Of a DNA stretch of 64,000 bases, positions 3,722 through 55,183 are shown one piece after another (the first letter of the stretch is position 1; the number at the start of each line of letters is the position of its first letter). The notes beneath the pieces were generated by a model. That model worked only from the letters and a program-made list of their open reading frames with translations. It made no database searches and was not told the DNA's origin. This stretch comes from Stegostoma tigrinum (Eukaryota), in NCBI RefSeq assembly GCF_030684315.1, contig NC_081396.1, forward strand, positions 3,410,001-3,474,000, in the 5' to 3' direction. A program made the position numbers and the translations under genes.

Positions 3722-4006
3722 TTCTGATGTTTGAAGATTCTGTCACTCCACTCCTGTCCTCAAAAAAAATCTAAGAGTAAAAACAATTACTTCATATTTT
3801 ATCCATTACAACACACGGAACGTCAATTGTTTATGTTGGTAACCGTGAGATTGCATTGACAAATATATCAGTGGTAATGAAGATAAACCAAATTGTGCAA
3901 AGGCCATTTCTTCTGCAGAGTTTGAAATCACAGCTAAAATCCTCACTTCATCGATGTCGTCTTGGTAGCTCGCTGATACCACAGTTTGTTACTGCGCCAT
4001 GAGAAG
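3722..4006 (+). pseudogene. TCR alpha/delta-like variable segment pseudogene
   Basis: Acceptor ttcctcag, then LMFEDSVTPLLSS (GDSVTQ-like FR1); CLCW* at the LYWY position; ends DTTVCYCAMR (DTAVYYCA-like); contains stops and frameshifts; followed by an RSS-like signal. Confidence 0.7.
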
Positions 4007-4045
4007 AACGGTGATGGAAGTCAGTCAACCTTTAAAGCAGAAACT
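4007..4045 (+). other. Degenerate 23-RSS of the V pseudogene
   Basis: AACGGTG - 23 nt - GCAGAAACT; the essential CAC of the heptamer is lost. Confidence 0.65.
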
Positions 4046-4448
4046 TGCATCGATCTGAATGCTTTAGAAACACTTGTTTGAACAAGATGCAGCAGGTGTC
4101 AAATTGATGATGAAACGCAGCGTGCCTGGCCTGTCAAACATAATGGGACAGCCCCAGGAAGCAGCCCATTGTATGAAGCTATCAATGTAGTCAGGTAATG
4201 ACGCAAATTTATCATTTCAACCTCTGAAAGGCATGGTTGACACGTGAATGAAAACGCCCAGATAATTTCAGAGCCACCACTGGGATTGAGTCGGCCAATC
4301 GACATCTGCAATCATCACAATTTAATATTGAGGTCCATAATTGGACAGCCTGATGATCTCATGTTATGTTCTTTACTCACGATCAAAACCCTGGCCCTGA
4401 CATGACACGAGGTGCATTCATCACAGCCAACCAATTTGCATTCACAAA

Positions 4449-4706
4449 TGATATGTTGTTGGGAGAACAACGCATTGATTTCTATATTCTTGAGAAATCA
4501 ATTGTTTTTATCTACTGTCACAGGGATACACGGACACTGTCTTAAAACTTCCTTCTCGACTAGATTTAAGTGTGAAACTTTGTAAATCCTTATTTTCCAA
4601 CACATAATTAGAAAGACACTGCCTCGAGATTCCTGCCTGAATAGAATTAGGTATAAGCTTTGTTAGTCTTTATCTTTCCGCACTTCGGTATGTGGAAACT
4701 GTCTCA
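4449..4706 (+). repeat. ERV 5' LTR (258 bp, TG...CA)
   Basis: Colinear with 12059-12316; ends TGATA...TCTCA; identity continues 6 nt further (AATAAG), so the right boundary is uncertain. Confidence 0.8.
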
Positions 4707-5122
4707 AATAAGACTAAGTTGGGCAGCGTTTCCTCAGGTAACTGGATTATCCGGGAGGTTAGAGTCCTTCAGTTGCCGGGGTTAGTGTGCCTAGGTCAGG
4801 TAAGTGGAAAGTCTGGGAGGTGAGATTCCCCCGGTGGATGGGGTCAGAGTCCTTAGGCCAGGAAGTAAAACTGCCTTCGTAAGTCTTGGGGTGTTCGATT
4901 CAGATTGGAAAAGTAGGATAAGTCTTCAGACGTAGGTTTCGGATAGTTACAGTACCTGTCTGTCTCAACCACCCTGCCTTAGATCGGTTGTTCAGAGGGG
5001 AAATGCCCGACGCGAATGTTGGGTACCCGAAGTGGGTGCTGAGACGAAGGAGACTGGTGTTGTATACAGAAATAAGTAAAAAGTAAAGGCACTAAAAATG
5101 GGACAAATGTTAGATTCGTCGG

Positions 5123-7218
5123 GTGTCGGAACCCCTTTTCATCGATTTTACCAGGATGACCTCGAATAGGAAATACAGTACCGAAGTCTGTTGGAATGCC
5201 AAAACAAAAAAAAAGGAAAATGAGAATCGCCATGAGGTGGAACGTGGGATATTGATCTATGTGCTAAAGTACGAGAGGCAATATCGACACGTAATGCGGG
5301 AAGTAAATGGAAACGGTTGATGTCATCCCGGAAAAAAAAGAGAGCTGAAGAGCTGAATGAAACATCAAAAATGGCTAGTTGGGTGGAAAATGCACTGAGG
5401 AAAGGGATTAGTGCATGTGATAGTCAGGGAAAACCTAAACCTTGGGAGATTTTAACGCCTCAGTGTGAGGATCATGAAATGAATGAACATGGAAGAGTTA
5501 AACAAGAAAGGCTGGAAAGGGAACGTTGGGTCAAAAAACGGGGATGAGAACTGCTGACAGAAGATACAAAAATCGGAGGTAACTCCTGACATACCTGGCA
5601 TGCCAATGTTTATCAAAAAATAATGACACAGGTCAGCAAGATGAGGAGAACTGGGGAAGGCACCCCTTGTCCCATCGGGACTACGAACCCCTCCACAACT
5701 CGAACCATCCTTGATCAACCTACATCTGCAGGCGCCCCAATACTGCCATCAGTCTCAGGAATCGCCCGGAGCCCGATTACTGTTATTGCACGCTGACCAC
5801 AAGAAACCTCCTACGACAGAATTCCCAAGTCCTTCAGAAATCAGTCCACGTGAACCTTCTGACAAACCCATGGCTTGGACAGGCTCTATTTCCTGTCATT
5901 GTACATCTGAGCCTAAACAGACAATCAGGAAACAAAATACGGAACAGACCACAAGTGGACAAAAGGAGTGGGGTTCATCACTCTTTTAAAACCCACAGGG
6001 GATGCCTGAAAAAAATGTCAGCCCCGCATGCAGTTTCCTCAGCCCACGAGTTCCTGTCTTGTGTCACCTCGCGATGCTGCGAGTGGTGAGAAGTATGTTA
6101 GTTCCGATTCAAGGGCTGATGATAATGAACCTGAGGACAGCGCTTGGGAGAGACCCTCGGACACCCCTCCCCGAAAGAAAGACCCCCATAAAAGAAATCC
6201 ACAATCTCTGAATCGTACGATCCATCACCTGAGCCCAACACAGGGGGATCAAAATACCATGCAGGCCGACACTCGTTGGAAGCTGCAGGAGATGTGTTTA
6301 ATTATGCAAAGAGCCACTCATAGAAAGACTAATCCTGACGACTTCATAGGCTATGTCCTGAGCACTATTCATATGCACCAAGGCACCCCGCAAGCCCTCT
6401 TTAGACTGCGCTGTATGGCTCTTACCCTCAGTGAATTTTCTCTGTGGAAAATCCCCCTGGGAGACCCAGCTCCCCAAGACTGGAATGCTTTTATAGGTCT
6501 TGTAGCTAAAGGTCTTAAGCTACTAACCATTAATGATCCCCTCAAGCGAACATTGCAGCAACCAGTAGATGTTCCCAGAGTGTCAGAGTGCAAATCCAAA
6601 CGCGGGGAATGAGTTCTGGGAATGTTTCAGTTCCACATATGCCACCTACTCTGGTAATACTGCCTACTTTGCAGGGAATCCCTCACCACAGTTCAATGCT
6701 CTTTTGCTGCAGTGTATACCTGAGGCTGTGGCGGTGGCTATTCGTACCAATAACATGGATTGGCCAGATAATAACCGTCCTCAAGTGGGAAGGGCCTTAA
6801 CTTATTACCGGAAGGAATCCTTACTGACCAGAGTCACAAATGACATGGTGTAGCATCACCTGTGCCAAGCCAGGTCCAGAAAACCAGCTCATCCAGCATT
6901 GGGCTTCCAATTAGTGAGGGCATTTCACACAGAATCCCAATACTATTTTCCTGCTGCGTCGACAATCATGGTAACGGTTTTGTCACTCACCCACACGGTC
7001 CTAATGCTCTTCACTGTGGAGCACCATATGCACCCGCTCCACCATTCCGGAGACCCAGTGCCACTTTGCCGCGAGGCGCAACACCACACTCTACTGACGG
7101 ATGTTTTAACTGTGGCAGTTGGGATCAGTGGATGAGGACTTGTGCTCAGAATCAAGGTCAAGGGAGAACACAAGGAAGAAGGCAACCCTTTTCCACTAAT
7201 AATCCTTTTTCAGCCTGA
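5123..7218 (+). pseudogene. gag: ERV gag, disrupted
   Basis: Pro-rich and capsid-like ORF fragments; degenerate CCHC knuckle CFNCGSWDQWMRTC (7102-7143); TGA at 7216-7218; start approximate. Confidence 0.7.
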
Positions 7219-10200
7219 TGATCTTCACCCCATAATCTGCACATTTTAAAGAGAGATCCGGAGGATCAACCTATGTTAATCTAACTGCACAAAGGGTAGC
7301 AAGTTCTTTTGTGATTGTTACTGGGGCCAAGACATCTATGTTGGATGCATCATGTGTACAGCAATATGGGTTTACACTCTCACCCGTCTCAGTAAGCCTT
7401 AATGGACAGACTGGACAGGCAAATGCATACTCTTTAACAGAACCATTGGCAGTTCAATTTGGCCCTGAAAACTGTATTATTTATTTTGCCCAGACACTCA
7501 CTTTGGGAGCTAATTTAGCCGGGACAGATTTGTTGTGCCTTCTTCAAACTGAAATTCTGTGTCTCAAGAAGGGCATTAGTGTCAAAAGTGACCCGATTAT
7601 GCGACATTTTTGGGTTCATCGATCGCCACAATGATGGACAATCGACTTATCTCTGTGAGATATCTCCCTTTTCCTCCAAATCCCTCGTCCTCAAGTTGAC
7701 TTGTGTTATGACCCTACAGGGACTTCCTGTTAATTGGCTGGTATTTACCCCCTATCTCGGATCAAGTTTATCTGTCACTATTGTCGGGTATATAGAGGGA
7801 AAGGAAGAATCAGCGTTTCTGGCGGAGGTGCCACCCCATCTATGCCATGAATCGTTCCTGGTATTCCCTTACTTCACACTGGCTGTGAGCACCGGCTACA
7901 ATGTCAAGTCCTTGGGATTTCTAGTGCACCTCTTGATCCCACAATCATACGTGGAAGTGAAGGGTTATTCAGCGCAGGTGGCTGATGGTCTCATTACATA
8001 TTATAGTGATCATTTTCTTGTCTTTGGGCCATTACATCGCCACCATGCTCATCATAGTGCCTCTAAGGAGTCTTCTCCAGACCTGTGGTCTACTTCCACA
8101 CCTGAGGTAGGATACACTCCGGTCACCATCGTAGGAGTGCGCTTACCCTCAATACCTCAGTACCCCGTCAAACCTGAGACAGTGGAAGGAATAACCTCCC
8201 TGATCAAGTCGTTCCTCCAACCAGGTATATTGTTCCCTTGTCAATTGCCTTGCAATACTCCTATTCTGCCCCTCCCTAAACCCGGTCGCCAGGAATGGCG
8301 ACTGGTCCAGGACCTCAGACAAATAAATAAGATAGTGCGACCCTGACATCCGATTGCCCTTAATCCTGCCACTATGCTTAGCAACATCCCCTCAGATGCG
8401 TGTGTCATCACCGTTTTGGACTTGCAACATGCATTTTTCATGATTCCCTTGCATCAGGGGTCTTAATATCGGTTTGTCTTTTCCTTTAAAGGACAGCAGG
8501 AGACCTGGACTTGTCTCCCCCGAAAGTTCATTCACTCGCCTGCCCTAGTTTCCCAGGTCTGGCATCGCCAGCTCCAAGATCTCCGACTCTTGGATGGCTC
8601 CACTGTTATCCAATATGTTCACGATTTGCTCTTAGCAAGCCCATCATAATCCAATAATGTTTTGGATGCAAACAGCCTTTTGAACGCTCTTCAATCTTGG
8701 GCATATCTTATGACCACTGTGAAGGTTACGTGTAATCAACAGCAGGGGCCGTTCCCAGGAATTCTGCTCAGCGCCTGGGAACTAACGCTGACCCCTCAGC
8801 GCATTGCTCTTATTCAGATGAACCACGCCCATCACCCCAAAACAAGTAAGGGCCTTTTTCGGCTTGGTAAATTATTGTTGACAGTGGCTCACGACTGTCC
8901 CTTTGCTTTAAAAAAAAAACTACCGACCCCTTTAGCTTCTTGTAAAAACCCAAAAAACCTTCACCCTCTCTGACAAACAACAGTCAGCCTTTGCAGACTT
9001 AAATGCTGACCTTGCAGCTTCCCCGGCTTTGGGAAGACCTTTACATGACAGACCTTTCCGGCTATATGTTAATGTTGTGTATGGGTGCACCACTGGGCTA
9101 TTGACACAGACTCGTGGCATGGGCAAACAATCGGCCAACGACGACTCTACCTGCCTGGACTCTGTCGCACATGGGCTTACACCTTTGTTCCAAGATTCTT
9201 CTTGCAATTTATTCTTCAGTCACTGCAGCCTCTAAAGTTACTCTCCACCAGCCACTTACTGCCAAAAACTCACATGCCATTGACGTGATCCTCTCCTCCC
9301 ACCAGACTCAACACCTTACCCAGGCACATTTTAGCTGCTACGAAGTCGCACTCCTTAACAATCCGCTCTTGACATTCTCTTTCTGCTTCACAAATAACCC
9401 AACCACGTTTTTGAGCACCAAACTCCGATGAGTATTTAGCACACCTGCATGACTGCTTACGAAGGAACCAATTTCTAACATTTCTGCGCCTGTACCTGAT
9501 TAATGTCACGGTCCCTTCTCCGGATGTTATCCTGTTTGTTGATGGCAGTTCCTCCAAGTTCCCCTTGGGTAACAGTCTGGACATCCAATTGTCGATGTTG
9601 CCTCAGATTAGAATCAATGGTATTTGAGCCCCCAGTGTCCGCTCAGAAAGCAAAACGTTTTGTCCTTACTGTGCTTGCATCCTAGCAACAGGGAAGTCAG
9701 CGAATATTTACACCAACTCTCCGTATGCCTTCAGAGTCACCCACAACTTTGGCCAGTTATGGTGTCAGTATGGGTTTTTAACATCTTCAGGTTCACCCTT
9801 CCAACATTCCTCGTTTGTTAAAAACCCTCTCCAGACAATCCTCTTCCCTAACCAAGTGGTTATTATCAAATGCGTTGCCCATGCCTCCGACGAATCCGGA
9901 GTTACTCAGGGCAACACTCGGGCTGATGAGGCGGCCAAACAGGCAACTGCAGATCAAACCTTTACTGTGCCATGTACGAACAAGCAGGTGGGAAATCCAA
10001 TGCCTCATTCGGACTAGATGGGCATACCAGAAATAGTCACTGTTCAGCACCTACAGGGCGATGTCCCTGCTTCTGAAAAGGACATTCGGACGGTGCATGG
10101 ATGTTCGTAATTTGCATCGTCAGGCCTTTGGATTACCCTCGTCGGCCAAGTGTGTATACCTGTTGCTTTGTTACCAATGCTTGTTGACTGTCTGCATTCT

Positions 10201-11190
10201 CACACCTATGTTGGCAAAGAGGCAATGAATGGTATTATGCTCCGTACCTTGTGGCACACCCGACTGGCTGAGGCACCCGCCCCCCGGCCCAGTCTCAAAG
10301 ACCATCATTTCTCACATGCAAGCAAAACAATTTTGCTCTGGGGGAGACGTGCTCACCCGGAAAAAAAATCAGGTGGACCGTTTGAATGCATTTAACTGGA
10401 TTTGATTGAATTACCTCGTGTAATTAGTTGTAAGTATTGTCTTGTCATTGCACATTCATTCAGTAGGTGGAGAGAAGCTTTCACACTGACACAAAACAAA
10501 GCCTCAACAGTAGTGAAGTTATTATTCATTGAAATAATGCCAAGGTTAGGTGTGACTCGACAATTTAGTTCTGTCAATGGCATCACTTTGTAGGAAAGAT
10601 TAATAAGGAACTCTGTGATACGTTATGCATCCAGCAGCAATTTCAACGTTCATACCACCCCTCAGTGTCAGGGATAGTGGAAAAAGAGAATGTAACGCTC
10701 AAAGCGAAATTGGCCAAGTTGATATTAGAGACTGGCCTTAGCTAGTTAAAGGTTTTGCCGCTAGCTTTGCACCACACGCGAATAACACCCTATTCTAAGA
10801 CTGGACTCACAGCAACAGAAATCGCCTATGGCTGACCCAGCAAAACACCCTGGGATGCCAATACCAGCCCACCCACCCAAATTGACTTGAATGTTGTGGG
10901 AGAAGAAATGCAAAGGTATTTTCTGCAGCCAACATCGTCTCCAAAGTTTCTCCATTCACTGGTGAAGCTGGTGAAGTGTACCATTGGAACACCGTTGCAG
11001 GCACTAGACCAAGACCTGAAGCACTAGAATCGCTCTTCATGACGACAGTTTGGAGATTTCGTACTTGTCCGAGATGGGGATCACCCAAATCTTGGGTGGA
11101 GGTGGAACGGGCCATTCTTAAAACTCCAACAGCTCTATAAGTTAAAAGACAGAATCGTTGGATCCACCGCAGGAACTGCAAACGACAGAT
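7219..11190 (+). pseudogene. pol: ERV pro-pol (protease, putative 2H domain, RT, RNase H, integrase), disrupted
   Basis: IVTGA (DTGA-like); PCNTPILPLPKPGRQEWRLVQDLRQINK; VLDLQHAFF; YVHD at 8614 (YVDD-like); LFVDGSS; GPFECI.LDLIELP; YHPSVSGIVEKEN. Confidence 0.9.
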
Positions 11191-11199
11191 TCCCTCTTC

Positions 11200-12030
11200 C
11201 CCTTGCAATTAACCATTTGAATGAGGATTATTCTGACAGTGCATGTCCAGCAAACAATCTGTTGCACAGAACACACGTCCAACTGCACGGGAATCAGACA
11301 ACATGTTACCTGCTGCCAGGCAAGAAGGGATTCGTTTTCCTTCTTCATGAGACCTTCACGATTGCCACTAAAATTTTGCTGGTGCTGTTTGCTGTTGGGG
11401 CCATTGGGCGCCTCATGGTCTCTTGTCCCCAATGAGCGTGAATTCAATGGCGAATTTCCTCACGCTTCCTGAGCCTGTAGTTTTGCGATGCATGGCAGGA
11501 TCCAATTGCCTTGGGCTCTTCCTTGTGTTATGGCTTCCTTGGAACTGTTAGCTTGGGAGGATCCCCGCGGTGGAGTCCGTAAGTAAACCGAAATTACCTG
11601 AGATGTAGACTCACCACCCTGGGAAACAGCACAATGAAAGCATTGGAGGCAGTCAACCGAGAATTTGCCAAACTTCATCTCTGTGCTCAGTAAACCCGGT
11701 ATGCAATGGACCATCAACTGGCTCAGCAAGGTGGAGAATGTATTATCATGGAGGACAAGTCTATGACCAAGTTACAGATGAGTCCTATAGTATTACCCAG
11801 GATATGCAAGCCATACAATGGCACTTGGAACAGTACAGACAGGGGCCCTGACCGGGGCAGTGTGGCTCTTTAGCATGGTTTATGGGCGGGTCTTGGGTCT
11901 CATACCTGCTACATGAGCTAGTTATTCTACAAGTTGTCATAGCGTTTGCTGTGTGTTTATTGTGTGCCTGAAATCTTGATTCAGGCATGCGTTTGCCAGA
12001 TCAGCAGCTCCCTTCTTGTCCCTGACATAA
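11200..12030 (+). pseudogene. env: ERV env remnant
   Basis: Fusion-peptide-like YGFLGTVSLGG; immunosuppressive-domain-like Q*TRYAMDHQLAQQGGEC (11688-11741); hydrophobic anchor LVILQVVIAFAVCLLCA. Confidence 0.7.
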
Positions 12031-12058
12031 GTTAACATGAAATAATAAACGGAGGGAA

Positions 12059-12316
12059 TGAGATGTTGTTGGGACAACATCCCATTGATTTCCACATTCT
12101 AGAGAAGTAAATGCTCTTTACCTGCTTACCCAGAAGTATGTGGACAATGCCTTCAAACTTCCTGCCCGACTAGAATTAGGTGTAAAACTTTGTAAATTCC
12201 AATCTTCCTACACATAGGTGGAAAGACACTCCCTTAAGCTTCCTGCCTAAATAGAATTATGTACTAACTTTGCCAGACTTTATCTTCCTGCGCAGGGGTA
12301 TGTGGAAACTGTCTCA
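12059..12316 (+). repeat. ERV 3' LTR
   Basis: Preceded by purine tract AAACGGAGGGAA; TGAGA...TCTCA terminal inverted repeat; aligns to the 5' LTR. Confidence 0.85.
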
Positions 12317-12939
12317 AATAAGTTGAGGTGTGTAGTGTTTGGAAACGTGTGAGACTTCTGAAATCCTGTAAAGAATGTAACTTCTGTTTCTGCTAAATGG
12401 GCCAGGGCACTGAATATTTTTTTTTCAAGCCAGACACTTTGGCGTCTTGAAGTTACATTCTTTCAGTTCAGCTACTTGAAATCGTCTCCTGCTCCGAGCA
12501 GTCACTTCACGAATGATCGATACTGCATCCTGCTGTCTGCATGTTTTTCATGTTGTAATTGTTTGTGTATCATGTCATTGCCCGATGTAGAGATTGTTTC
12601 ATGCAACATGCCATTGTGAGATGTAAAGTTGCTTTGTCTGTTATGCGCTCGATAAGGTATAAAAATTGGGGACTGTCCACTGCTCGGGGACAATCGCTTC
12701 TGAGACTCTGCACTCTGTGCCAGGTTGAGTACAGTGATCCTCCACAGATTGTACTTGCTTCCTAATACTGGATTTGTGTTTTTTTCTAAACAGGTCAGTG
12801 TCTTGTTGTTGCATCAAGTACGTCAAGGTCTCCGAAAACAAACATATCAATAAATGGTCCCTATTATCAGTTTTTCTTGCTCCCCAGCTCACCATTACGC
12901 ACAATGTTTGTCTGCCCAGCTGCTGTTCTCTTTGAGGTC

Positions 12940-13510
12940 ACAGAACATAGAACATCGAACACAGAACAATACAGCACAGAACAGGCCCTTCGGCCCTCGA
13001 TGTTGTGCTGACCGGCAAAGTAATCTAAGCACATCCTACTTACACTATCCCATCATCATCCATTTGCTTATCCAAGGACTGTTTAAATGCCCCTAATGTG
13101 GCTGAGTTAACTACAATTGCAGGCAGAACGTTCCAAGCCCTTACCATGCTCAGAGTAAAGAATCTGCCTCTGACATCTGTCTGATATCTATCACCCCTGA
13201 ATTTGTAGCTATGCCCCCTCGTACAAGCTGATGTCATCATCGTCGAAAAAAGACTCTCACTGTGCACCCTATCTGATCCTCTGTTCATCTTATATGTCTC
13301 AATTAAATCCCCTCTTAGACTTCTTCTCTCCAATGAGAACAGACCCAAATCCCTCAGTCTTTCTTCATAGGGCCCTCACTCCAGACCAGGCAACATCCTG
13401 GTAAATCTCCTCTGCACCTTTTCCAATGCTTCCACATCCTTCCTGTCATGGGGCGACCAGGACTCTGTGCAATATTCCAAATGAGGCCGCACTAGCGTTT
13501 TATATAGATC
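12940..13510 (-). mobile_element. CR1 LINE 3' end
   Basis: LYKTLVRPHLEYC..LEKVQRRFTRMLPGLE and LGLFSLERRSLRGDLIETYK..WNVLP; (AGAACAT)n-type tail. Confidence 0.9.
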
Positions 13511-15044
13511 CATCTCAATCTGTCTCCATCTTACTAAATGCAACCATCCATGGCTACCCGACTTTCCCGTTTCCTTTGCATACAGATCTCTGTTTCCAGG
13601 TGCATTTGGCTCTGAAGAAGCATCACTGTACCGGAAATATTGAGGCTGTTGAATTTCCAAAGATGCTGTCAGGCCCCCTTAGATCCGAATCAATTTCTAT
13701 TTCAGCCTTTTTTTGAATTTTGTTGGAATGATAACACTGTCGTCTATGTGTTTATTTCTAACAGCCAGAACTCCAATTCGTTGTAAATTCTTTCACGATG
13801 TTACCGCATTTCAGGACCAGATGTTGAAATACTTGCTTCATCCCCACAGGCATTCATCTTTTTGAGGTCACCAATAGTAAGATCCAATTTTCTCCGAGAC
13901 TGTCAGGCAAATCCGGTTTCCAAATGAAGGGGAATTTCAATCAATGAGGGATACATGGGCTCATGCACCCCAATAGTTGGATAAACAGCCTCTGGCTCTC
14001 AGCACTCATCCCACTCAGGTCATTCTCTTGGCATGGGGATGATATCAATCACCCAAGGTCCACACTGACGAGGAGCATGCGCAGCAGAATGGGAGTAAAG
14101 CCTCCAAATGTGAGGGAGGATTGAGGCTATCAGTTGAATGAGAAGTTTCAGTAACACCTCGGGGAGGTTGCCAGGCCTGATTGTCAATATGCTACTACTT
14201 CCTGGTGTAGAGTTTGTCAAAGAGAGCAGGGCCGGAATTTCCTGGGTGAGGTCTGAGGCCTCGAATAAGAGCATCTCACGTTGCGACTGTACCCCGCCGG
14301 CCTGACTGGCGGCTATCGTAGTGAGAACACCATCAAATGCCATTTCTGTGACAGAATTCCTATTTTGTGTCAGTCTTTTGCGTCATTGAGAGTTTGCTAA
14401 ATTCACTCTGAGACAGCTGACTCTGAGTTTAGACTATGATCCCTAAAAACATGAAAAGGGAGTGAGAGTGGCATCCAGGATTAACAAAAACAAAACCAAT
14501 CATCGTATATAAATTAACCCAAACGAATCTGTCAATTGTTGGGGATGGAGATGAAGCATGCAAGATGTCAGTCACCTGGTGTGAAAATCCTTTGTTCATT
14601 GGTTTACTTTTCAGTTTGTCGACCAACTGGAGAAATGAACCCAAACATGGAATAGGATTGGAGAACACTGAGATTTGAGGAAGGAAATAATGGGAATGGA
14701 TTTGTATCTCAACCCATAGAAACTAGCATTGTCTCATTAGTCGTCTTTTTTGATCCTGTCGTTATATTGACGTCTTTTGTAAACTCCTTTCATCGAGTGG
14801 TGCAAGCTTTAGATGGAAACGCAAACCAAAGAATGCATCAAACTTTGACCGTCTCCTTAGTTATCTGGGTCTGAATGTCATCGCTCTTTATATATGATAC
14901 AACTAATATTTGTTCGTTCTGTCTGTGCGAAAACTGTTCAAAAATCAGCAAATTCTGTGACGTACACACACAATTCAATGCGAGGTTTCGACCTCACTGT
15001 ATGTGGAAACAGTTTTAATTGGCAATATTTTAAAAAAAATCTTG

Positions 15045-15345: not shown

Positions 15346-17700
15346 AGGAATTTATTAAGTCCAGCATCCTGCTGTCATATGTGTGTTCTCACATTCAAGA
15401 TTAGCCATTCTGCTGCACTGTCTGTGGAAGGAGGTCCAGGCGGTCATGTGAATTCATTACTTAGCAGCGAATTGGCACTGGAGAGAGGCCATTCACCTGC
15501 TCAGCATGTGAAAGAGATTCGCTCAGTCATCCAATCTGCTGAGGGTCCTCCCTGAGTATGCTCACAAATCAGACAATGTACCATGGCATGTAAACAACAC
15601 AAAATGTGATTTTTAAAAAAATTACTGCTGGAGGCAACACATACACCAAAATATGTTAAAATGAAATTTAGAATGAAGTCTCTGATCTCACCTGGAAAAC
15701 AGCGTCCACTTTCAGACCTTTTTTTTTGAAAGAAAGGAAAGTCATGAAACAGAGGCAAAACAAAATCACCGTGCTAAAGCGCTGTTTCCGGGGTGATGAG
15801 CTTTGCGAAGGCTGGCCGATCCTCCACTGTTTAACAACAATTTTCAATTTGGTTGAATTCCATAAAATGCCACTGCGTTTTAGTGGAGTTGTACAGGGAG
15901 AACCTGCTTCTATTGAAGAAGGATTGTAAACATTCAGACGTCTGTCAAATATAACTGGCAATTAGAACAACTCAAAATTAGATAAAGTGAAGCTTATTTT
16001 AATGCAGTGACTGTTTCAGAGAGTTAAACCTGCTGCAAACTCCGCTGTGAACTCGGGATTATGCGCGGCACTCAAAGGTATTGTAGCCTGGCGAGATGGT
16101 TTGAAACAATATTTGTGATTTATCAGCAATGATGTAGGTGTCTGTGAAAAAAAGTAACCAAACAAATCTGTTCGAGCATCTCCCATATTTTGCAGCACAG
16201 CTTCTATTGTCAGTTTCTACTTAATGCTTTGTTTCCAATCAATGCCTTTGTCGTTTCGGTTTCCACACTGTAAATCTGTTAGCGTACATCTTTTCTACAC
16301 TTCGCACGTTTAAAAATTCCAGCGGTGGTGAAAGTATGTGACTTTTGCTCCAATAGTTTGGAAGAGTCTCTCTGTGTACCCAATTTAATTCAAAGATCAA
16401 TTTCTCTTTTTTGAATTTGCATGTGTGTAATGGTTGTATGTAGTAAAGTTGATCATTAATCTCTTGTCATGATATAAGGTTCAATTTTAAGGATTAAATG
16501 GTAATTTGAGAAAATTACGAAAATGCCAGAAATAATTATCTAGCTTTTAGTGCTCCAGCCAGACCATGACATCAGATCTAGCCGAAGAAAATCTTCATTG
16601 TTTGGTGTTTTGAAACAGCCGGTTTCATAAGAAATTTGTATTACATGCGTAGCTCCCGCGTAAGTAAAATATAACGAATGTAGAAAGGTTCAGTGCATAT
16701 AGAACAGGCAGTTTCCAGACTCTGAGAATGTTTCCTTTTTTGACGCTGAATTATATCTTGTGCCCCATATGTCTCAATGTATCTGTATTCTTGAGTGAAT
16801 GTGATACTTGTGGCTGATTAACATTTAATTGGACATGTTTGGTCGAAATGTATTCATTGGGAACTCATGGTCTACCGACGTTGGATGCCTTGTGGTTTTA
16901 GACAGAATCCAGTGAACTTTTAACTCCATTGCGTGTCTTTCGCAGCTTTCTTGTCAAACAATGGTCGTGATGTTTTTATAAAGGCTGTGACCTTTTGTGT
17001 ATCAGAGGAAACATTGATGGCCTCGTTGCACTTTCATTCTGCCTGCAGATTATCCTATCAGACATATCGAGTGAAAGATGAGTTTACATTAATCGGCCAC
17101 AAGTTAGAGAAGCATTAACTGAAATGAATTCATGAAACGAAATCTGACATAAGTGTGTAGCATTTGACTGGAATCGGATCTAGGCGGACAAACTTGGGAA
17201 AATATATCATTACTGTTGGCCCTTGAAGTAAGAATTAAACAATTTCAAGTTTCATACATATTCATTCCACATTTCTTTACCGTTTCAGACAGCATTTTTA
17301 TCGAAACGTTTCTGTTAAAATTACCAAAAAATAACATAATTACCCGATGCCACATTGAGGTGATAATGCATGACCTCTGAGCTCAATAACCAGAAGAAGA
17401 AAACATGGGGTCAACATAAAGGACAGACATCAATTCGGATCAAGAATAACAAGAAAAAAAAGCACAAGTTGACTTCAAACAACTGGAAACCTACAAATTA
17501 TTGAAAAAAATAGCTATTTCGACAATATGAAACAAGGTTATTTGGAAAACCCATAGAATATTTTCTCAGTTACTCACATAAACTATTTTTTTTTTCCTCA
17601 CTGCTAGTGTCGACAGCAGGAGCGATTGTACATTTGGAATTCAGTGGCCTCGATAAACGTAAAATTTATTCAAGGAATTTCCTTGGGGTCACAAATTCAT

Positions 17701-17709
17701 TCACTTGAC
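17701..17709 (-). pseudogene. IGHM: Remnant TM2 exon (VK*)
   Basis: ttttttcag|GTC AAG TGA, identical to the functional TM2. Confidence 0.85.
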
Positions 17710-17848
17710 CTGAAAAAAGAATGTTTAGGTAATGATTTAGATGTTTATGATCAGAACATACAGGTTTTAATTTTAATTCAATGACACACATCAAGATTTC
17801 ACGAGCCACAATGGCCTGGTGATGTGTGAAAGATTTCATTCTTCTCAC

Positions 17849-17965
17849 CTGCACCAGTGTGACAGCAGCACGAGAGAAAATGGTCAGGAAGAAAAAGGTG
17901 ATGAATGTCGAAGCAGAAGATGTTATCATCCTCAAAGTCTTCAATCCAAATATGATCTTTCAAAT
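17849..17965 (-). pseudogene. IGHM: Remnant TM1 exon, frameshifted
   Basis: 117 nt versus 128 nt in the functional copy; AG/GT sites intact; DLKDHIWIEDFEDDN followed by the frameshift; FYS changed to FSR in the ancestral frame. Confidence 0.88.
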
Positions 17966-20760
17966 CTATGAATTTAAAGCCAAGATAACGGAATTAGAAT
18001 GTTCATTTATCCAATCCGATGTATCTTTATCTAAATAATGTAATCAGGGTCCATAACACATTCTTCAAACCGTCAGGTTGTCCTCAAATGTGTTACTTGA
18101 TCTCTATCTATTATTGTGTCAGTTACTCTCAGCAATAACTTGCTAACACTAATTGCACACGTTCTTCCTTTGTTTTCCATGTCTCAACATTTTGACACAT
18201 TTTTTCATTTAAACTGTTCTGGGAGAACATAATTATTGTTATCATTCCGGACATACTGATTGGGAAAGATGATATTAATTCTCTCAATATTTTTTCAATA
18301 CAGGCTTTTACAGCTGTTACGTTGAAAATTGTGGCCATCACTGAAGATGATTTCAAATGTGATTATTCATCTTCTTTATTTATATGCGTTCAATTGCTTG
18401 AAAAATCAGAAGCAAAACTTAGATCCAGGGCAAGATTTTTTTTCACTGTGAACTTTCCCTAATTTTATTTCAGTCTGTCACTTACTGTGCATTTTTTTTT
18501 CTTTATTGTTTGGTTATACGGTTATCAGGTTCTCTTCCTTCGCACTTGTCCACATTGAAGCTTGTGCATGATTGAACATATTCCTGTTGCCTTGTTGCTG
18601 GTATGATCATTCACATCTTTGTGCTTGTGGAGGTAAATTGTGTTCATTCCACAATGTGTCAAAATCATTTTTTTGACACGTCACTTCATTTGGTGATACC
18701 TATCTTTATTTTTTCATGACTTTGAGTTTTTTTCTTTTACGTCGTGCTCCGGAAAATGTGTGTTAATGCATCGATTACAGATTCTACCAGGCTGAAATTA
18801 TTTTCACGTTTACACTCCATCAATGTGTTAGTTTTTTATGTACCTTAATGTTTTGCTTGATGAGTATATTTAAGTGATGATATGGTTTCCTTGGGAATGC
18901 ATCCTAAACCATCTTCTGATAGGATTTCTTGTGCTGTTGCACCTGAATGTTTACTGATGTTGAGCCATTCCCCTTTTGTTGCAAATACCCGACTGTGTGT
19001 TGAAATATGCACTTCTGTGTCTGCACGTGAGACTCATGAATTGTGTTTAAAAGTGTCCGTGTTTATGCGCTGATCATTGATGGTTTAAAAGATGCCACTA
19101 AGCTGCCTCTTTGTTCATATGACTATATTTCTTCAAGTGAGGTAATAATGAGATTAAATTTATCTCTGTGATCTTATATATGTGCGTGTGAGTGAACCTG
19201 TGGGAGGATATGGCTCGGATATTTATATCTGTTTATAATTGCATGTCTGTACGTATGAATATATGAAAGGATATGGATTCATGAACATTTGTGTGCTGAA
19301 ATGTATCTATGATTTCAAGTTCATGTGGAGTTACCATTTTTTGTTTGGGTGTGTTTCTTTCCATGCACTGGATGTTTTTGTGAGAGTCTATGTGACAGCT
19401 CATAGATCATATGCAAATATTCCTCTCTGCATGTATGCATATGTGACAGCTTATCTGTATGTGCATTTATATTTGCACATATGTATGTCCCTTTCGGCGA
19501 AAGCTTATGGATGTGTGTCTTCAGAGCAGTTGTGGCTGTCTGTATCTGTGTTTCTTTCTGCTCTAACACAGGCTGTGTTTTATTTTTCATTATTTTGCAA
19601 TTTTAATTGATTTGCAATGACTATTTCTGATCCTGATGGTATAGGGAACATTTCTCGTCTGAATTAAAGATAATCACTTTGTGATTGACGTTTGATGCAA
19701 AGGCAGAATTTCTGTCTCTGTGATGAAAGACCTGAGATCAAATTTCCACGACTCCAGAGATGTGAAGCAACATTTCTGTGTATGTTGGATATAAAATATG
19801 TCCAAGGTAATTGAAAGAAGATGACATCCGGTGTTTGTACAGCAGAACTGATACCACGGGTTCAAGGAATTTTAGTCAAGTCTGTGGAAAATAGCTACAC
19901 TAATGCTTATTTGGTTTTGTATGATGCGGAATCAATGTTAACAGATGATTAATGGAACAAGCATGTCCAACATACTTCAAAGGAAGTATGTGGCATGGAA
20001 AAATTAACTCATTGTTCAGTCAGGAAGAAACTGACTGTTCCTGTTCGGTACAAAATCACATAACAGAGGGTGTACAACGTGAAAACTTGGAGAGTGGAGT
20101 AAGCTGAGAGCTCGTTAATTGTATTCATTTCTCCGTCTGCTTGACAAGAACAAAATTTCTTTTTGTTATCTTTGGTGTGGAATTGAAGATACATTCTGTC
20201 AAGTGGTGCGCTGCTGCAAGATCACTGGACGCCCCAAGTTAAAACAGAAAAATTCAAGTCATTCTGAACCCTATAAAATAAGTGTCCAAGTCAATGCTAA
20301 CTTTTCAGTGTGTTCCAATAAAAAATAATGTTAAAATTCTCTGAAGTTGATCTTGCCAGTTAATGCAGTGTGGCAGTTTAACGCTGGCATGAAATTTACA
20401 GATATGTCTCATTGAGGACTCATCAAAACAAAGATCATAATTGGTGCTGTTCATTTGTGATGAAATGGGCATTGCAAAATTTCGTCGCTTTGTGATTGAA
20501 GTTGCAGAAGGTAATTTCTAGAATCCTGCAATGAATGAGCATCAGTCTGTCACTGAAAAGGACCAATCTAAGCAGGGAGCATTAACTGCGCAGGCTAAAG
20601 TACTGGAACTGCTAATTATCGACATTACCTAGAAGGACAGAATATTATAAAACGTGGGAAATCAATCAATCAATTAAACGGTTGTCTATTTAGAGAACAA
20701 TTGGAGGAAAGAAAACAGTTTATTATTTTTATTGAATTCTTATGTGTATCCTTGAGACTT

Positions 20761-21099
20761 TCATTGGCATGAATTTATGGTGTCCATCAGTGCAAGCGAA
20801 ATATTCACAAAACTCGGTTTCCCGCTTGATTTATCAACTGTTCTGTTGATGATCTTCAATGGGATCACTTCGTGTCCCACCACACAGTGGTAAGAAGCAC
20901 CGCTGGCACACTCCTCCGCAGCAATGGATAATAGGATGTATTAGAAGAAGGAGGTGTTATCGCTCTCTGTCGTCACCTCGGTGTTCATATTGTTCGTCGG
21001 ATTAACCGGCTTGTCATTGGTTGTCCACTTGACGAAGCTCTTTCGGGGCCTGAAACCTCTCACTAAACAGTTGAGTGTCTGTGCGGACACTTCTTCTGT
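20761..21099 (-). pseudogene. IGHM: Remnant CH4 plus secretory tail
   Basis: 22 mismatches in 300 nt versus 36581-36880; in-frame TAA at 20941-20943; 9-nt deletion; internal TM donor GT changed to GG; 5' end and acceptor missing. Confidence 0.93.
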
Positions 21100-33269: not shown

Positions 33270-33278
33270 TCACTTGAC
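33270..33278 (-). CDS. IGHM: IgM TM2 exon (VK*)
   Basis: ctttttcag|GTC AAG TGA, completing the KVK cytoplasmic tail. Confidence 0.92.
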   Translation of the reverse strand, partial: VK

Positions 33279-33417
33279 CTGAAAAAGAGTGATTGGGGAA
33301 TTGTTTAAATATCGATGGTCAGGGCATTCAGGGTTTAATTTTAATTTAATGACACACTTTGAGATTTCACAAGCCACAATGGTCTGTTTGAAGCGTGAAT
33401 GATTTCATTATTCTCAC

Positions 33418-33545
33418 CTTTACCAGCGTGACAGCAGCACTATAGAAAATGCTCAGGAAGAACAAGGTGATGAATGCTGAAGCTGTTGCCCAGATGTTGC
33501 CGTTATCATCCTCAAAATCTTCAATCCAATTACGATCTATCGAAT
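33418..33545 (-). CDS. IGHM: IgM TM1 exon
   Basis: DSIDRNWIEDFEDDNGNIWATASAFITLFFLSIFYSAAVTLVK; CART motif; AG/GT boundaries. Confidence 0.95.
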
Positions 33546-35249: not shown

Positions 35250-35570
35250 TAGGGAGTTTTGAGAAGATTTATAGCTCAGGTTTTGGGTGGAAGTTTGCTC
35301 GCTGAGCTGGAAGATTCGTTTTCAGATGTTTCGTCACCATTCTAGGTAACATCATCAGTGAGCCTTCACTGAAGCGCAGGTGTTATGCCCTGCTATTTGT
35401 GTATGTGTTAGGTTTCCTTGGACATCACCAACCCAAGGAAACCTAAACACATAAATAGAAAGCGGGACATAACACCAGCGCTTCACCGGAGTCTCATGGT
35501 TGATGTTACCTAGAATGGTGATGAAACGTCTGAAAATGAACCTCCCAGCTCAGCGAGCAAACTTCCATCC
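35250..35570. mobile_element. Penelope fold-back (inverted pLTR pair) with 13-bp TSD in the CH4-TM1 intron
   Basis: ~35285-35421 is the inverted copy of ~35433-35570; TSD ATAAACACTTTGT (35237) / ATAAGCACTTTGT (35571); empty site in the paralog at 19670-19682. Confidence 0.9.
35325..35358 (-). ncRNA. Minimal hammerhead ribozyme core, sense to IgM pre-mRNA
   Basis: CTGATGA-T-GTTACC-TAGAAT-GGTGAC-GAAAC-ATC; stem II GUUACC/GGUGAC fully paired. Confidence 0.6.
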
Positions 35571-36538
35571 ATAAGCACTTTGTGATTGATGCAGGAATGT
35601 TGAATATAAAATATGTACAAGGCATGTGAAAGAAAGTGACATTCGGTGTTTGTATCCCAGAACTGAGTCCACGGGGTACAGGATTTTGATTCAAAAGTGT
35701 GGAAAATTTTTGGAATAATGACAGTTTAGCTTTGAATGATGCAGAACTAATTTTAACAAATGATTAATGGACCAAGCGTGTCCAACAGGCTTCAAAGGAA
35801 GTATGTTGTGTGGAAAATTTAAATCATTGGTTGTAAGGAAGAAGGTGATTGTTCCTGTAAGCTGCAAAATCACATTGCAGCGGGCGTACAACGTGAAAAC
35901 TCGGCAAGGGGATTGAGCAGATAGTCTGTTAATTGTTATACTCTCTTCTCCCTCAGCTCGACAAGAAAAAAAAAACATTCTCCCTGTCATATTTCACATG
36001 AAAGTGAAGATAAATTGTGTCGACTGATGCACTGTTGCGAGATCCCTGGCAGTCTCCAGATAAAAATAGCATAAATTCAAATCATTCTGAACACTACATG
36101 CTTTTTGCCCAAAGCAGTACTATCTTGTTGGACTGTTCTTTTAGAGAATAATTTTAAATGTCTCTAACGTTTATATTCTCAGTTAGTGCAATGGAGCAGT
36201 TTAAAGCTGGCATGAAATTTACAGACATGGGACATTGAGGAATCAGGGAAATAAAAATCATAATTCGTGATGTTCATTTGCGATGAATTGGGCATTGCCA
36301 AATTTTGTCAAAGTGTGATTTAGGTTGGATTAGGTATTTTGCAGAATCCTGCGATTAGTGAACTTCATTCTGTCACTGAACAGGGCCGATCTGAGCAAGG
36401 ACCATTAACTGTGCAAGCAAAGGTTATAGACGTGCTAACTGCCAACATCGACTGACAGGACAAAATATTTTTAAAAGTGGGAAACACAATCAATTAAACT
36501 GTTGTCAATTTACATCACAATTGGAGGAAAGAAAATGG

Positions 36539-36580: not shown

Positions 36581-36972
36581 TCATTGGCATGAATTTATGG
36601 TGTCCATGAGTGCAAGCGAAATATTCACAAAACTCGGTTTACCGCTGGATTTATCAACTGTTCTGTTGATGATCTTCAATGGAATCGCTTCATGCCCCAC
36701 CACACAGGAGTAAGAAGCACCGCTGGCCCACTCCTCCGCAGCAATGGATAATAGGCTGTACAAGAAGAAGGAGGTGTTATCGCTCTCTGCCGTCACCTCG
36801 GTGTTCTTATAGTTAGTGGGATTAACGGGCTTGTCATTGGTTGTCCACTTGACAAAGATCTCTCGGGGCCTGAAACCTCTCACCAAACAGGTGAGCGAAA
36901 CAAACTTCTGTGCGGAGACGTCTTCTGTCGTTGGCAGGAGGACAGAAACCGATGGCTCCAACGGATTTATCA
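36581..36972 (-). CDS. IGHM: IgM CH4 exon plus secretory tailpiece
   Basis: [53 protein letters not shown]|[20 protein letters not shown]; internal donor G|GTAAA after 36643 for TM splicing. Confidence 0.97.
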
Positions 36973-37426: not shown

Positions 37427-37732
37427 ATTTCTCCTTGTGGATAGAGTGTCTCAGTGGAGTTGGTAGATACTGATTGTTCACCACGCATTCAAATGTATCC
37501 CCACTCAGCCAGGCTTCAGTAGAAATATCTAACTTGCTGATCACACCTTCCGAATGCTCTCCGGACTGGTCAACAATCTCTGATTTCAGAGTCTTCTTGT
37601 CGTGCATCCAGGTGAAGTTGGCTTCAAAATGAAGGTTGTACACAATGCAGGTTAACGTCACCGTCGCCTCCAGTAAGACCTGTTCGACTGGTGGCGGTAG
37701 TATTTTAGCTGTGTAATCATGGCACTCTGAAA
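37427..37732 (-). CDS. IGHM: IgM CH3 exon
   Basis: VSECHDYTAKILPPPVEQVLLEATVTLTCIV..FTW..WLSGDTFECVVNNQYLPTPLRHSIHKEK; 306 nt, phase 1. Confidence 0.96.
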
Positions 37733-39671: not shown

Positions 39672-39983
39672 CCTGTGGCCCAGTGATGTTTTGACGTTGA
39701 ATAAGCCCTTCATGGTCGACCTGACATGTATAGACTGCTCTGTTGAACCATTCACTATAAGGGACTCTCAGCTGACTGGTCGTTGAGAAGTTTCCGTTTG
39801 TTTCACACACGGCAGAAGTGAAGATACCAGATTTTACCTCTCCTCCATTCTTCAACCAAGTCACAGAGATTTGCTTTGGATTGAAGTCAAAGACTGAACA
39901 GACGATGGTTGCAACTTTTCTGTGCTCGATTTCTTCACTGGAACTCACAGTTACGAGAATAGTTGGATGGGCACTACCTTTAC
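39672..39983 (-). CDS. IGHM: IgM CH2 exon
   Basis: KGSAHPTILV..ATIVCSVFDFNPKQISVTWLKNG..EWFNRAVYTCQVDH..NITGPQ; 312 nt, phase 1. Confidence 0.96.
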
Positions 39984-43040: not shown

Positions 43041-43337
43041 ATGGCATTTCAGTGCTTGTGTCGGATCCGCTGTGTCGAACCTCACAGATAATTTTTTCGC
43101 ATTTTGCCTCTGTTTCGGTGAGCACTAACTGACTGGTCAGGGTGTAAGTTCCCTTCTTGTTTCTCACCGATGGATATGTCTTAACTCCATTCGGAATCGG
43201 CTCCCCACCTTTCTTCCAGGTCACTTTGGTGGTGTCAGGAGAATAGTCCATCGCCAAACAACCAAAAATCACAGAGCTGTCAGTGCTGTGGTGCCCACAG
43301 GAGGCTAGTCCATAAAGTATCGGGGAAGACGGTGTCA
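43041..43337 (-). CDS. IGHM: IgM CH1 exon
   Basis: [65 protein letters not shown]; 297 nt, phase 1. Confidence 0.97.
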
Positions 43338-52940: not shown

Positions 52941-53416
52941 TCAAGAGAGAATCTAACGTGTTTATCATCAAGAAAATTAACATTCTAAACCACAAAGTAC
53001 AAGCACAACACAAATATCACATGTAGGAGAAATATATTGAAGAAATTGACAATAATGTTTTAGCACATTTTGTCAATGTTTGTTTTTGAACATTTTTAAA
53101 TTCGTAAAGCTTGTTCTCACTGGCATTAATCATTGTTTAAACGTTGTATTGTTTCAGGCACTTTTTTTTCAATTAACCCAGCTAAACTCTATTGCCATCT
53201 GATAAAAATGAGAGAGCCGCCGAAGAACTGAATCACTCACCAGCACTTTGGTTATTTGCCTGGACTTAAATGAATTTTATAATTACGATGGAGAAAATAC
53301 AATTGGAACAAAACTAAACTCAGGACAGAATCCGTGTATCATTTGAATCATGAATTAATCAAATGAATAGACAGTTAACAAACATAACGGTTGATAGGAA
53401 CATTCAGGTTTCTTAC

Positions 53417-53464
53417 CTGAAGTCACAGTCACCATGGTTCCTTGTCCCCAGTAATCGAAGTAGT
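53417..53464 (-). CDS. IGHJ: IgM JH segment
   Basis: YFDYWGQGTMVTVTS followed by the donor G|GTAAG. Confidence 0.98.
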
Positions 53465-53503
53465 CACAATGTTACATTCCATGGACTGGGTCACACAGTA
53501 ACT
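53465..53503 (+). other. JH 23-RSS
   Basis: CACAATG - 23 nt - ACAGTAACT. Confidence 0.9.
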
Positions 53504-53830
53504 GTCTCTGCACAAAACAAGCAAAAACTGTCATTATTTTAAATCATCATAACTTGAGCCAAAATAAAATAACAACAAATCTTCATTACGTTATAATTGT
53601 GCAAATGGAGTCTGCTCATTCTTGATAACAGATTCTAATATTGTACACTCCTAAGAATAACACATGAAGTGATTGTCAATATCACCAACTAATTATCAAT
53701 AATTATCGCCGTTTTTACAAATTCAACCGTGGTATTCGATAATATCCCACAGAACTGATACTGAACTGAACATTCAGATAGTTTGTAAAAAGTAATTACT
53801 GACCAAGTTCCTAACAATGAGAGATGAACG

Positions 53831-53900
53831 TGTTTATGTATTGATCATATTGGCTGTGCTACCCCAGTAGGTCACTGTGAGATGCATGATATCAAATACT
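53831..53900 (-). other. IGHD: IgM D2 segment (coding 53859-53872, ACCTACTGGGGTAG) with 12/12 RSS
   Basis: 5' RSS CACTGTG-12-TCAAATACT; 3' RSS CACAGCC-12-ACATAAACA. Confidence 0.92.
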
Positions 53901-54214
53901 ATGGTGGGCTGTATACCATAAAATGCAGATACCCATGTTCACTGAATCCTAAATAAAAAGAACTGGTTCAGGCTCCTCTAAAAATGATGCAGTGCAAAAG
54001 TTTAGATTTTACTTCCCATTGTATTTTTAAAGGTGCTTGCAATATAATTTCATGTTTGGTGTATGTTTAACGTGTTGGTCTATCGGAAGAAAGTAGAAGA
54101 ATTCTGTTCATTCATACAAATGAGCTTTATTGGTCTGCATTTTAATTAAGTCTGATATTATTTGTCCCTCCTGCTATGGTCGTAGTCGCCAATTTGAACG
54201 AAACACTTGCCAGT

Positions 54215-54294
54215 GGTTTCTGAACGACGATGCCATTGTTCACATCACTGTGACCCACTGTCGTATCACAGTGATGTAAACCTGCACAGAAGCT
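54215..54294 (-). other. IGHD: IgM D1 segment (coding 54253-54266, ATACGACAGTGGGT) with 12/22 RSS
   Basis: 5' RSS CACAGTG-12-ACAGAAGCT; 3' RSS CACAGTG-22-TCAGAAACC; all three frames open (IRQW/YDSG/TTVG). Confidence 0.95.
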
Positions 54295-54664
54295 GCCTCA
54301 TTGTTTGTTCCATATTCTGCCTCAATTTTAATGTGGAATAGAGATTTAGTACTGATCATTGAGGAATGAATGCCATAACTTGCATAATGCAATTAGCAGA
54401 GATTTCATGAGGATACAGATGAAATCAAATCAGCATAATGTTCAAGTCTTTCATTTATGGAACTATTAGCAGTACGTACGCCATGCCTAATACTTCAGAC
54501 TTTATTTTATTGCTTGTTTTGTAAGTTTTAATTGTTCATTTCCGCTGTAATAGTTTTGTCAGAAGGATTTTGAGGTCTACGTCGCATTATAGTTGTGAAT
54601 GTCACATTGAAGACAAGTACTCACGATTAGTTTACAGTTGTATCTGCAAAGTGTCTCCTCGTGC

Positions 54665-54703
54665 TGTTTGTGTACATGTCCAGCCGTTGTTCCTCACTCT
54701 GTG
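54665..54703 (-). other. VH 23-RSS
   Basis: CACAGAG - 23 nt - ACACAAACA. Confidence 0.92.
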
Positions 54704-55008
54704 GTCTCTTGCACAGTAGTAGATGGCGGTGTCCTCGAACTTCAGGCTCTTCATGTCCAACGCGAAGATGTTGTTTGAAGTGTCTTTGGACGCACTAAAT
54801 CGATCTTTAATCGCTGGCGCATAGTAATTGTCCGATGAAGTATAGTAGCTAACCAACCACTCCAGACCCTGTCCAGGAACCTGCCGGACCCAAGCCATAT
54901 AGTAGCTGCCAAGATTGAACCCGCTGGTTTCACAGGTCAGTGTCAGGGAGCCTCCAGGTTGGCTGTTCCCTGCCTCTGGCTGAGTCAAAGTAACCTCCGA
55001 CTGGACAC
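54704..55008 (-). CDS. IGHV: IgM VH exon
   Basis: [72 protein letters not shown]; open, canonical C-W-C. Confidence 0.98.
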
Positions 55009-55134
55009 CTTCAAAAAGAAAATAAAATATGACAAGTTTTACTGATGAAATGATTTGTACATCTTTTACATTCCAGGACTAGGTGAACACGTGAAAGATA
55101 ACACACAGAAACTTGGAGAAAAAAAAGTACTCAC

Positions 55135-55183
55135 AGGATAAGAAAGTCAGAAACAAACTGAGAAAAATCGTCGACGTTGTCAT
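55135..55183 (-). CDS. IGHV: IgM VH leader exon
   Basis: MTTSTIFLSLFLTFLS + T|gtgagt; 49 nt, phase 1. Confidence 0.95.

What the first reader, a model, noticed from the sequence alone, without database searches (positions are those of the whole stretch)
3722..55183. Intact IgM cluster linked in cis and in opposite orientation to a TCR alpha/delta-like V segment
Seen: a plus-strand V pseudogene (EDSVT..W..CYCAMR, 23-nt-spacer RSS) lies ~29 kb from the 3' end of a complete minus-strand IgM cluster. Established: sharks make chimeric IgH-V/TCR-delta chains. Inference: this window is in or next to a TCR alpha/delta V array, so this VH (23-RSS) or VH-D1 (3' 22-RSS) could join TCR D-delta/J-delta in cis, probably by inversion. 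One V gene would then serve both a BCR and a TCR.
Basis: partly seen in the sequence, partly recalled or inferred. Interest (0 to 1): 0.75.

Follow-up and report, generated by a model that had tools for sequence, protein, structure and literature searches.

The report
Shark IgM beside dead T-cell segment
A complete shark-type antibody (IgM) gene sits 29 kb from a broken gene piece that likely came from a T-cell receptor, a neighbourhood already described in sharks and rays, so this is an ordinary example and does not show that the antibody gene also builds T-cell receptors.

Summary
The anatomy is right. An intact minus-strand IgM minicluster (55183-33270; secreted and membrane forms open) lies 29.3 kb from a plus-strand V relic (3722-4006). 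The relic is dead: frameshift, three stops, lost first cysteine, signal heptamer without CAC. Same-species DNA runs show no indels there. No database search recognised it; by eye it matches nurse shark TCR alpha V families. An LTR-retroelement relic and a dead second IgM 3' end lie between the two. The layout is published: Flajnik 2025 (PMC12227049) lists TCR alpha/delta V segments, pseudogenes included, between IgM clusters in both orientations over about 9 Mb, and offers proximity as the basis of chimeric VH-TCR delta joins. The relic therefore gives neither distance nor orientation to TCR delta D/J/C, and no TCR J was found in the window. Dual use and inversion are untested. The scan noted similar relics 1.3-2 Mb away on the same genome piece. 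Ordinary.

The parts
55135..55183 (-). IgM leader exon
   Evidence: ATG and GT donor; leader-V splice joint 55005/55132 in run X1 of a related organism
54704..55008 (-). IgM VH exon, open, CDR1 GFNLGSYY
   Evidence: Pfam V-set E 1e-17; 79% to Heterodontus HV01, 76-77% to the best Chiloscyllium and Scyliorhinus VH
54665..54703 (-). VH 23-RSS (CACAGAG, 23 nt, ACACAAACA)
54215..54294 (-). D1 (54266-54253) with 5' 12-RSS and 3' 22-RSS
53831..53900 (-). D2 (53872-53859) with 12/12 signals, less canonical than D1
   Evidence: read from the sequence
53417..53503 (-). JH (53464-53417, YFDYWGQGTMVTVTS) with 23-RSS
   Evidence: V-to-JH joints in run X1
43041..43337 (-). C-mu 1
   Evidence: C1-set E 1.4e-14; open splice
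39672..39983 (-). C-mu 2
   Evidence: C1-set E 4.6e-20
37427..37732 (-). C-mu 3 (acceptor at 37732 or 37726, both in frame)
   Evidence: C1-set E 4.4e-9
36581..36972 (-). C-mu 4 with secretory tail; internal donor at 36643 for the membrane form
   Evidence: C1-set E 1e-20
33270..33545 (-). TM1 (33545-33418) and TM2 (33278-33270)
17034..21099 (-). Dead 3' end of a second IgM cluster: 5'-truncated C-mu 4 with a 9-nt deletion and a stop, secretory tail, TM1 with an 11-nt deletion, TM2
   Evidence: 92% (312/339) to the intact C-mu 4 against 77-81% in non-coding parts
4447..12322 (+). Decayed LTR-retroelement (endogenous-retrovirus-like) relic, about 400 nt past the V relic's signal
   Evidence: direct repeats 4447-4712 and 12057-12322 at 78.6%; RNase H E 3.6e-9, RT_RNaseH_2 E 3.7e-4
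3722..4006 (+). V pseudogene, likely TCR alpha/delta type: FR1 frameshift, Phe for the first Cys, about 21 nt missing in FR2, three stops
   Evidence: by-eye match to nurse shark TCR alpha V rows; no indels in runs X2 and X4
4007..4045 (+). Degenerate 23-RSS without CAC (2 + 3 mismatches)
   Evidence: runs X1-X4 read A at 4010, one mismatch fewer; no change at 4007 among the rows shown
3570..3626 (+). Probable decayed leader exon with a GT donor about 95 nt before the V acceptor
   Evidence: read from the sequence; inference; 5' end not defined

Best explanation
This is a complete, intact elasmobranch IgM minicluster lying 29 kb from a broken V segment that is likely of TCR alpha/delta type and likely cannot recombine, the two likely being mere neighbours in the multi-megabase antigen-receptor complex already described for sharks and rays. 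The cluster would work as usual: RAG joins V-D1-D2-J inside about 1.3 kb, and splicing gives secreted or membrane IgM (anatomy shown; use shown only for homologues in a related organism). The V relic, the retroelement relic and the dead second IgM end are birth-and-death debris (inferred): IgM clusters multiplied and died among scattered TCR V segments. The relic marks the neighbourhood but has no part in any VH-to-TCR-delta join, and its strand does not predict deletion or inversion.
For: Open IgM reading frames and standard signals. The relic has four or more lesions and no CAC; DNA contigs of two samples span it with 1-7 substitutions per contig and no gaps (X2 records 11, 13; X4 records 27, 29). 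Paralogues of the relic at about 82% and of the IgM V-D-J region at about 82-89% exist in the same organism. The remnant IgM is 92% in C-mu 4 against 77-81% non-coding, as expected of a once-functional paralogous cluster. The published layout matches: great white IgM at 14.94 Mb has a TCR V 28 kb away and two TCR V pseudogenes of opposite strands 54 and 69 kb away; the text says TCR-type V exons lie between IgH clusters. A relaxed scan found no TCR J in the window.
Against: The relic's class has no E-value behind it: Pfam, PDB and three protein searches found nothing relevant. Over the last 42 codons it shares 13 residues with nurse shark alpha V4.1 but 11 with the window's own VH (by eye), so FR3 alone does not decide. 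No light-chain or NAR-TCR set was compared. The scaffold could not be read, so membership of the complex rests on the relic and on unchecked scan notes. Chimeric joins are called common in sharks, so this VH may still be used that way.
Confidence: 0.8

Rival explanations
1. This VH (23-RSS) or VH-D1 (3' 22-RSS) also joins TCR delta D or J (12-RSS) on the same chromosome in thymocytes, so one V serves both receptors; the join is a deletion or an inversion depending on the unknown orientation of TCR delta. This can hold alongside the best explanation.
For: Signals are intact and compatible (TCR delta signal layout recalled). IgM and IgW V joins to TCR delta are reported as common (PMC12227049; PMC5931798). 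Catshark has an IgM cluster on the opposite strand 83 kb from its TCR delta entry, and stingray IgM clusters lie opposite to TCR delta at 1.7 Mb or more.
Against: No TCR J in the window and no way to place TCR delta. Nothing sets this cluster apart from other IgM clusters. Published maps show dedicated Ig-like V segments next to TCR delta (TAILV, 'Ig-TCRd V') that can supply chimeric chains without an IgM cluster. V orientation in the complex is mixed (16 plus, 12 minus of 28).
Confidence: 0.25
2. The relic is not a TCR alpha/delta V but a decayed light-chain, NAR-TCR, VH-like or non-rearranging V, and the window is an ordinary IgM region.
For: No search classified it. Weak hits to shark VH exist (whale shark VH E 0.015 within the window; 9/28 with the window's VH).
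Against: A 13-nt exact match to the start of nurse shark alpha V2.2; 23 of 32 nt around the EDK motif and the same Cys-to-Trp spacing as alpha V4.1 (by eye); 19 of 24 nt at the 3' end and the C-A-x-R ending of alpha V1.1 (by eye); a signal remnant right after the exon argues for a rearranging V.
Confidence: 0.1
3. The relic's lesions are assembly errors and it is a working TCR V.
For: The window differs from all laid runs at 3980 and 4010.
Against: Contigs of X2 and X4 cover 3230-3970 and 3387-4148 without gaps and with few substitutions, too few to undo a frameshift, a deletion of about 21 nt, three stops and the heptamer.
Confidence: 0.02

Closest known systems
Elasmobranch antigen receptor complex (AgRC), Flajnik et al. 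2025, PMC12227049
   Same: IgM miniclusters, some dead, with TCR alpha/delta-type V exons and pseudogenes between them in both orientations at tens of kb; proximity offered as the basis of VH-to-TCR-delta joins.
   Different: Only one V relic and no TCR D/J/C, NAR-TCR, IgW, UrIg2 or PSMB5 identified in these 64 kb. The paper's main text does not discuss orientation ('orientation' 0 hits; 'inversion' 1, unrelated), though its table lists strands.
Elasmobranch IgM minicluster (horn shark and nurse shark type)
   Same: V-D1-D2-J with 23, 12/22, 12/12 and 23 signals, four C domains, secretory tail, two TM exons; VH 79% to Heterodontus HV01.
   Different: No difference found, apart from a dead second 3' end 12 kb downstream.
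IgH-V/TCR-delta chimeric chains and TAILV (Criscitiello 2010; Deiss 2019; not held, known from citing passages and recall)
   Same: A VH with a working 23-RSS that likely shares a chromosome with TCR-type V segments.
   Different: This VH has its own D, J and C, unlike TAILV; no chimeric transcript seen for it.
Nurse shark TCR alpha V families 1, 2 and 4 (PMC5931798, Table 1 source data)
   Same: DSVT start, EDK motif, Cys-Trp spacing and C-A-x-R end, colinear over the last 42 codons (by eye).
   Different: The relic is broken throughout and only 13 of those 42 residues are identical; alpha versus delta use cannot be told.

Membership tests
Elasmobranch IgM minicluster | One V, two D, one J within about 2 kb with 12/23-compatible signals | tested here: met
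Elasmobranch IgM minicluster | Four C1-set exons, secretory tail and TM exons, open when spliced | tested here: met
Elasmobranch IgM minicluster | This copy rearranges and is expressed | not testable with these tools
   No RNA run of this organism listed; joints seen only for homologues in organism A
TCR alpha/delta V | Sequence groups with TRAV/TRDV rather than VH, VL or NAR V | tested here: inconclusive
   By-eye motif matches to TCR alpha V; no database hit; no light-chain or NAR set compared
TCR alpha/delta V | 3' signal with 23-nt spacer right after the V exon | tested here: met
   Remnant in the expected place, 5 mismatches
Functional TCR V | Open frame, both cysteines, heptamer starting CAC | tested here: not met
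Antigen receptor complex (AgRC) | TCR-type V segments interspersed with IgH clusters | tested here: met
   One likely TCR-type relic beside an intact and a dead IgM
Antigen receptor complex (AgRC) | TCR alpha/delta C, IgW, IgNAR, PSMB5 on the same chromosome | not testable with these tools
   No genome held; scan notes are leads only
Donor of chimeric IgH-V/TCR-delta chains | Transcripts of this VH joined to TCR delta J and C | not testable with these tools
   No RNA of this organism; the listing for a related organism's contigs was cut
TAILV | Ig-like V without its own IgH D-J-C, beside TCR delta | tested here: not met
   This VH has a full IgM cluster; definition partly recalled, named

The most novel reading that the evidence does not exclude
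This intact IgM cluster faces away from TCR delta on the same chromosome, and its VH or pre-joined VH-D1 is captured by TCR delta D/J through a megabase-scale inversion, so the shark 'trans-rearrangement' is a cis inversion that leaves a detectable signal joint and lets one V gene serve B and T cells.
Probability: 0.12. Interest if true: 0.45.

Novelty: new member of a known kind. Interest (0 to 1): 0.15.

Why it matters
Little as it stands: chimeric chains, the IgH-TCR alpha/delta linkage and interspersed TCR V pseudogenes are in print (PMC12227049). What stays open is which intact IgM clusters actually donate V to TCR delta, whether IgH D1 is carried along, and whether the join is a deletion or an inversion. 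This intact cluster is a usable test case once its place relative to TCR delta is known, but the V relic adds nothing to that test.

Tried and rejected
Classifying the relic (81 residues, frame from 3762, X at the three stops; the 5' frame was not included): no Pfam family at E 0.1, 4 unrelated PDB hits at E 0.057-0.76, no candidate at near length, 11 longer candidates and none at E 10, 0 hits among 1.84 billion representatives. No language-model or structure comparison of the relic was obtained. Nurse shark sequences were compared by eye only, for rows of alpha V families 1-7; other families in that file were not viewed. Expression: no RNA holder listed. Run X1 (organism A, RNA by guess) on the V-D-J region: 13 of 15 listed joints go V to JH, one is the leader splice, one is inside V, 62 not shown; 6 loose ends listed for X1, the two at the J end read as C-mu-1-like, none at the V end, 65 not shown across both runs. 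This neither shows nor excludes chimeras. X1 also holds a germline homologue of the relic at a depth like that of IgM introns, so it is no sign of expression. Octamer ATGCAAAT at 3457: 11 copies in the window, dropped as chance. One RSS-plus-WGxG hit at 62118 besides JH lies in LINE-like sequence and lacks the J pattern; rejected. No perfect 23-RSS in the window. Scan notes near the window, by sequence, by words and in relatives: nothing. A paper search for inversion or cis rearrangement in shark IgH/TCR delta gave one newt paper; the two primary papers are not held, so absence from print is not established. The supplementary PDF of PMC12227049 was not read.

Full report
Observation. The window holds a complete IgM minicluster on the minus strand. 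Leader 55183-55135 and VH 55008-54704 splice to an open V with CDR1 GFNLGSYY; the VH is V-set (E 1e-17) and 79% identical to Heterodontus HV01, which places the DNA in a cartilaginous fish. Signals are VH 23, D1 12/22, D2 12/12 and JH 23. J, four C exons and either the secretory tail or TM1-TM2 read open to one natural stop. The cluster ends at 33270, 29.3 kb from the relic.

The V relic. At 3722-4006 on the plus strand, after an AG acceptor, EDSVT stands in one frame and the rest in another. The second frame has three stops. By eye against nurse shark alpha V4.1 the first cysteine is Phe, FR1 lacks one base and FR2 about 21. The signal is AACGGTG, 23 nt, GCAGAAACT: five mismatches and no CAC; 34 sites in the window score as well with a 23-nt spacer. 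That RAG needs CAC is recalled knowledge. DNA-like runs of organism B cover it with 1-7 substitutions per contig and no gaps (X2 records 11, 13; X4 records 27, 29), so the damage is real. All four runs read A at 4010; no change at 4007 is among the rows shown (352 rows not shown). Contigs at about 82% over 3779-4046 (X3, X4) and about 81% over 3381-3656 (X2-X4) show paralogues.

What class of V. Five searches found nothing relevant. The label rests on reading the source data of PMC5931798: a 13-nt exact match to the start of alpha V2.2, 23 of 32 nt around EDK and the same Cys-to-Trp spacing as alpha V4.1, and 19 of 24 nt plus a C-A-x-R end as in alpha V1.1. Against this, the last 42 codons share 13 residues with alpha V4.1 and 11 with the window's own VH (by eye; BLAST gives 9 of 28 for the VH), and no light-chain or NAR set was available. 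I put TCR alpha/delta type at about 0.85-0.9.

What lies between. Direct repeats at 4447-4712 and 12057-12322 (78.6%) bracket a decayed retroelement with RNase H (E 3.6e-9). At 21099-17034 lies a dead IgM 3' end on the same strand as the intact cluster: C-mu 4 cut at its 5' end, with a 9-nt deletion and a stop, and TM1 with an 11-nt deletion. It is 92% (312/339) identical in C-mu 4, 86% (100/116) in TM1 and 77-81% in four non-coding stretches. That pattern fits a paralogous cluster that worked for a time and then died (inference). The relic's nearest Ig neighbour is thus a dead cluster 13.7 kb away. A relaxed scan for a signal followed by [FW]GxG found JH and one hit in repeat sequence, no TCR J. 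tblastn with the window's five domains and ten stored proteins found no other convincing V or C; VH queries would miss other decayed TCR V.

How it most likely works. The IgM cluster rearranges within itself and makes secreted and membrane IgM. Homologues in organism A do so: 13 of 15 listed joints run from V to JH with inserted letters, the leader splices to V, and J continues into C-mu 1 (RNA status is a guess, 62 joints not shown). The relic cannot plausibly be cut by RAG or code a domain. It is a marker of the neighbourhood, left by the duplication and loss of IgM clusters among TCR V segments (inference; similar divergence of relic and IgM paralogues, fits but does not prove co-duplication).

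Comparison with what is known. [quoted passage not shown] In its great white table the TCR and NAR-TCR V entries are 16 plus and 12 minus of 28, from 8.4 to 17.1 Mb, with the TCR alpha C entry at 8.2-8.35 Mb; IgM C clusters are 4 plus and 5 minus of 9 (hand counts). One IgM has a TCR V at 28 kb and two pseudogenes of opposite strands at 54 and 69 kb. Catshark has an IgM opposite to TCR delta at 83 kb. Chimeric chains are also stated in passages of PMC5931798, PMC6795676 and PMC5192425. The primary papers (Criscitiello 2010, Deiss 2019) are not held; PMC11372145 gave only the reference. Whether they show IgH D use or orientation I cannot say from calls.

Earlier scan notes (unchecked) place TCR V and NAR-TCR relics 1.7-2.1 Mb before and 1.3-1.8 Mb after this window on the same piece, one of them dead TCR V segments inverted behind an IgM. 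They agree with the reading, which I had formed, and were not tested here.

Verdict. Observation confirmed; interpretation partly supported. The IgM is a textbook cluster, the V is a fossil, and their linkage is one more case of the published antigen receptor complex. Dual use of this VH is possible (about 0.25) and inversion is undecided (about 0.12 together); neither follows from the relic. Interest 0.15.

Noticed in passing
window 17034-21099 (minus): Dead 3' end of a second IgM cluster, 12 kb downstream of the intact one on the same strand; coding parts better kept (92%, 86%) than non-coding (77-81%). Its TM1 and TM2 splice sites are intact, so read-through splicing from the intact cluster is conceivable but would shift frame.
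   Followed up: yes
window 4447-12322 (plus): Old LTR-retroelement or endogenous-retrovirus-like relic with terminal repeats at 78.6%, RNase H and reverse-transcriptase traces, broken into short frames.
   Followed up: partly
window 35264-35596, 2087-2276, 2452-2603: A short repeat present in the intact cluster's C-mu-4-to-TM1 intron but absent from the remnant, with related inverted pieces near 2.1-2.6 kb.
   Followed up: no
window 53421, run X1: One contig of organism A continues from JH into a divergent C-mu-1-like exon (by eye VPASPPMLY against VTPSSPILY), perhaps another IgM subfamily.
   Followed up: no
window 3980 and 4010: All four laid runs differ from the window at both places; 4010 lies in the relic's heptamer. 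A private allele or an assembly error.
   Followed up: partly
window 3381-3656: Region upstream of the relic is kept at about 81% in paralogous contigs, and holds a probable decayed leader and an octamer-like motif at 3457 that is at chance level.
   Followed up: partly
window 13043-13678, 26182-26863, 62160-63466: LINE-like reverse-transcriptase and nuclease fragments in stop-to-stop frames (names recalled, not searched).
   Followed up: no
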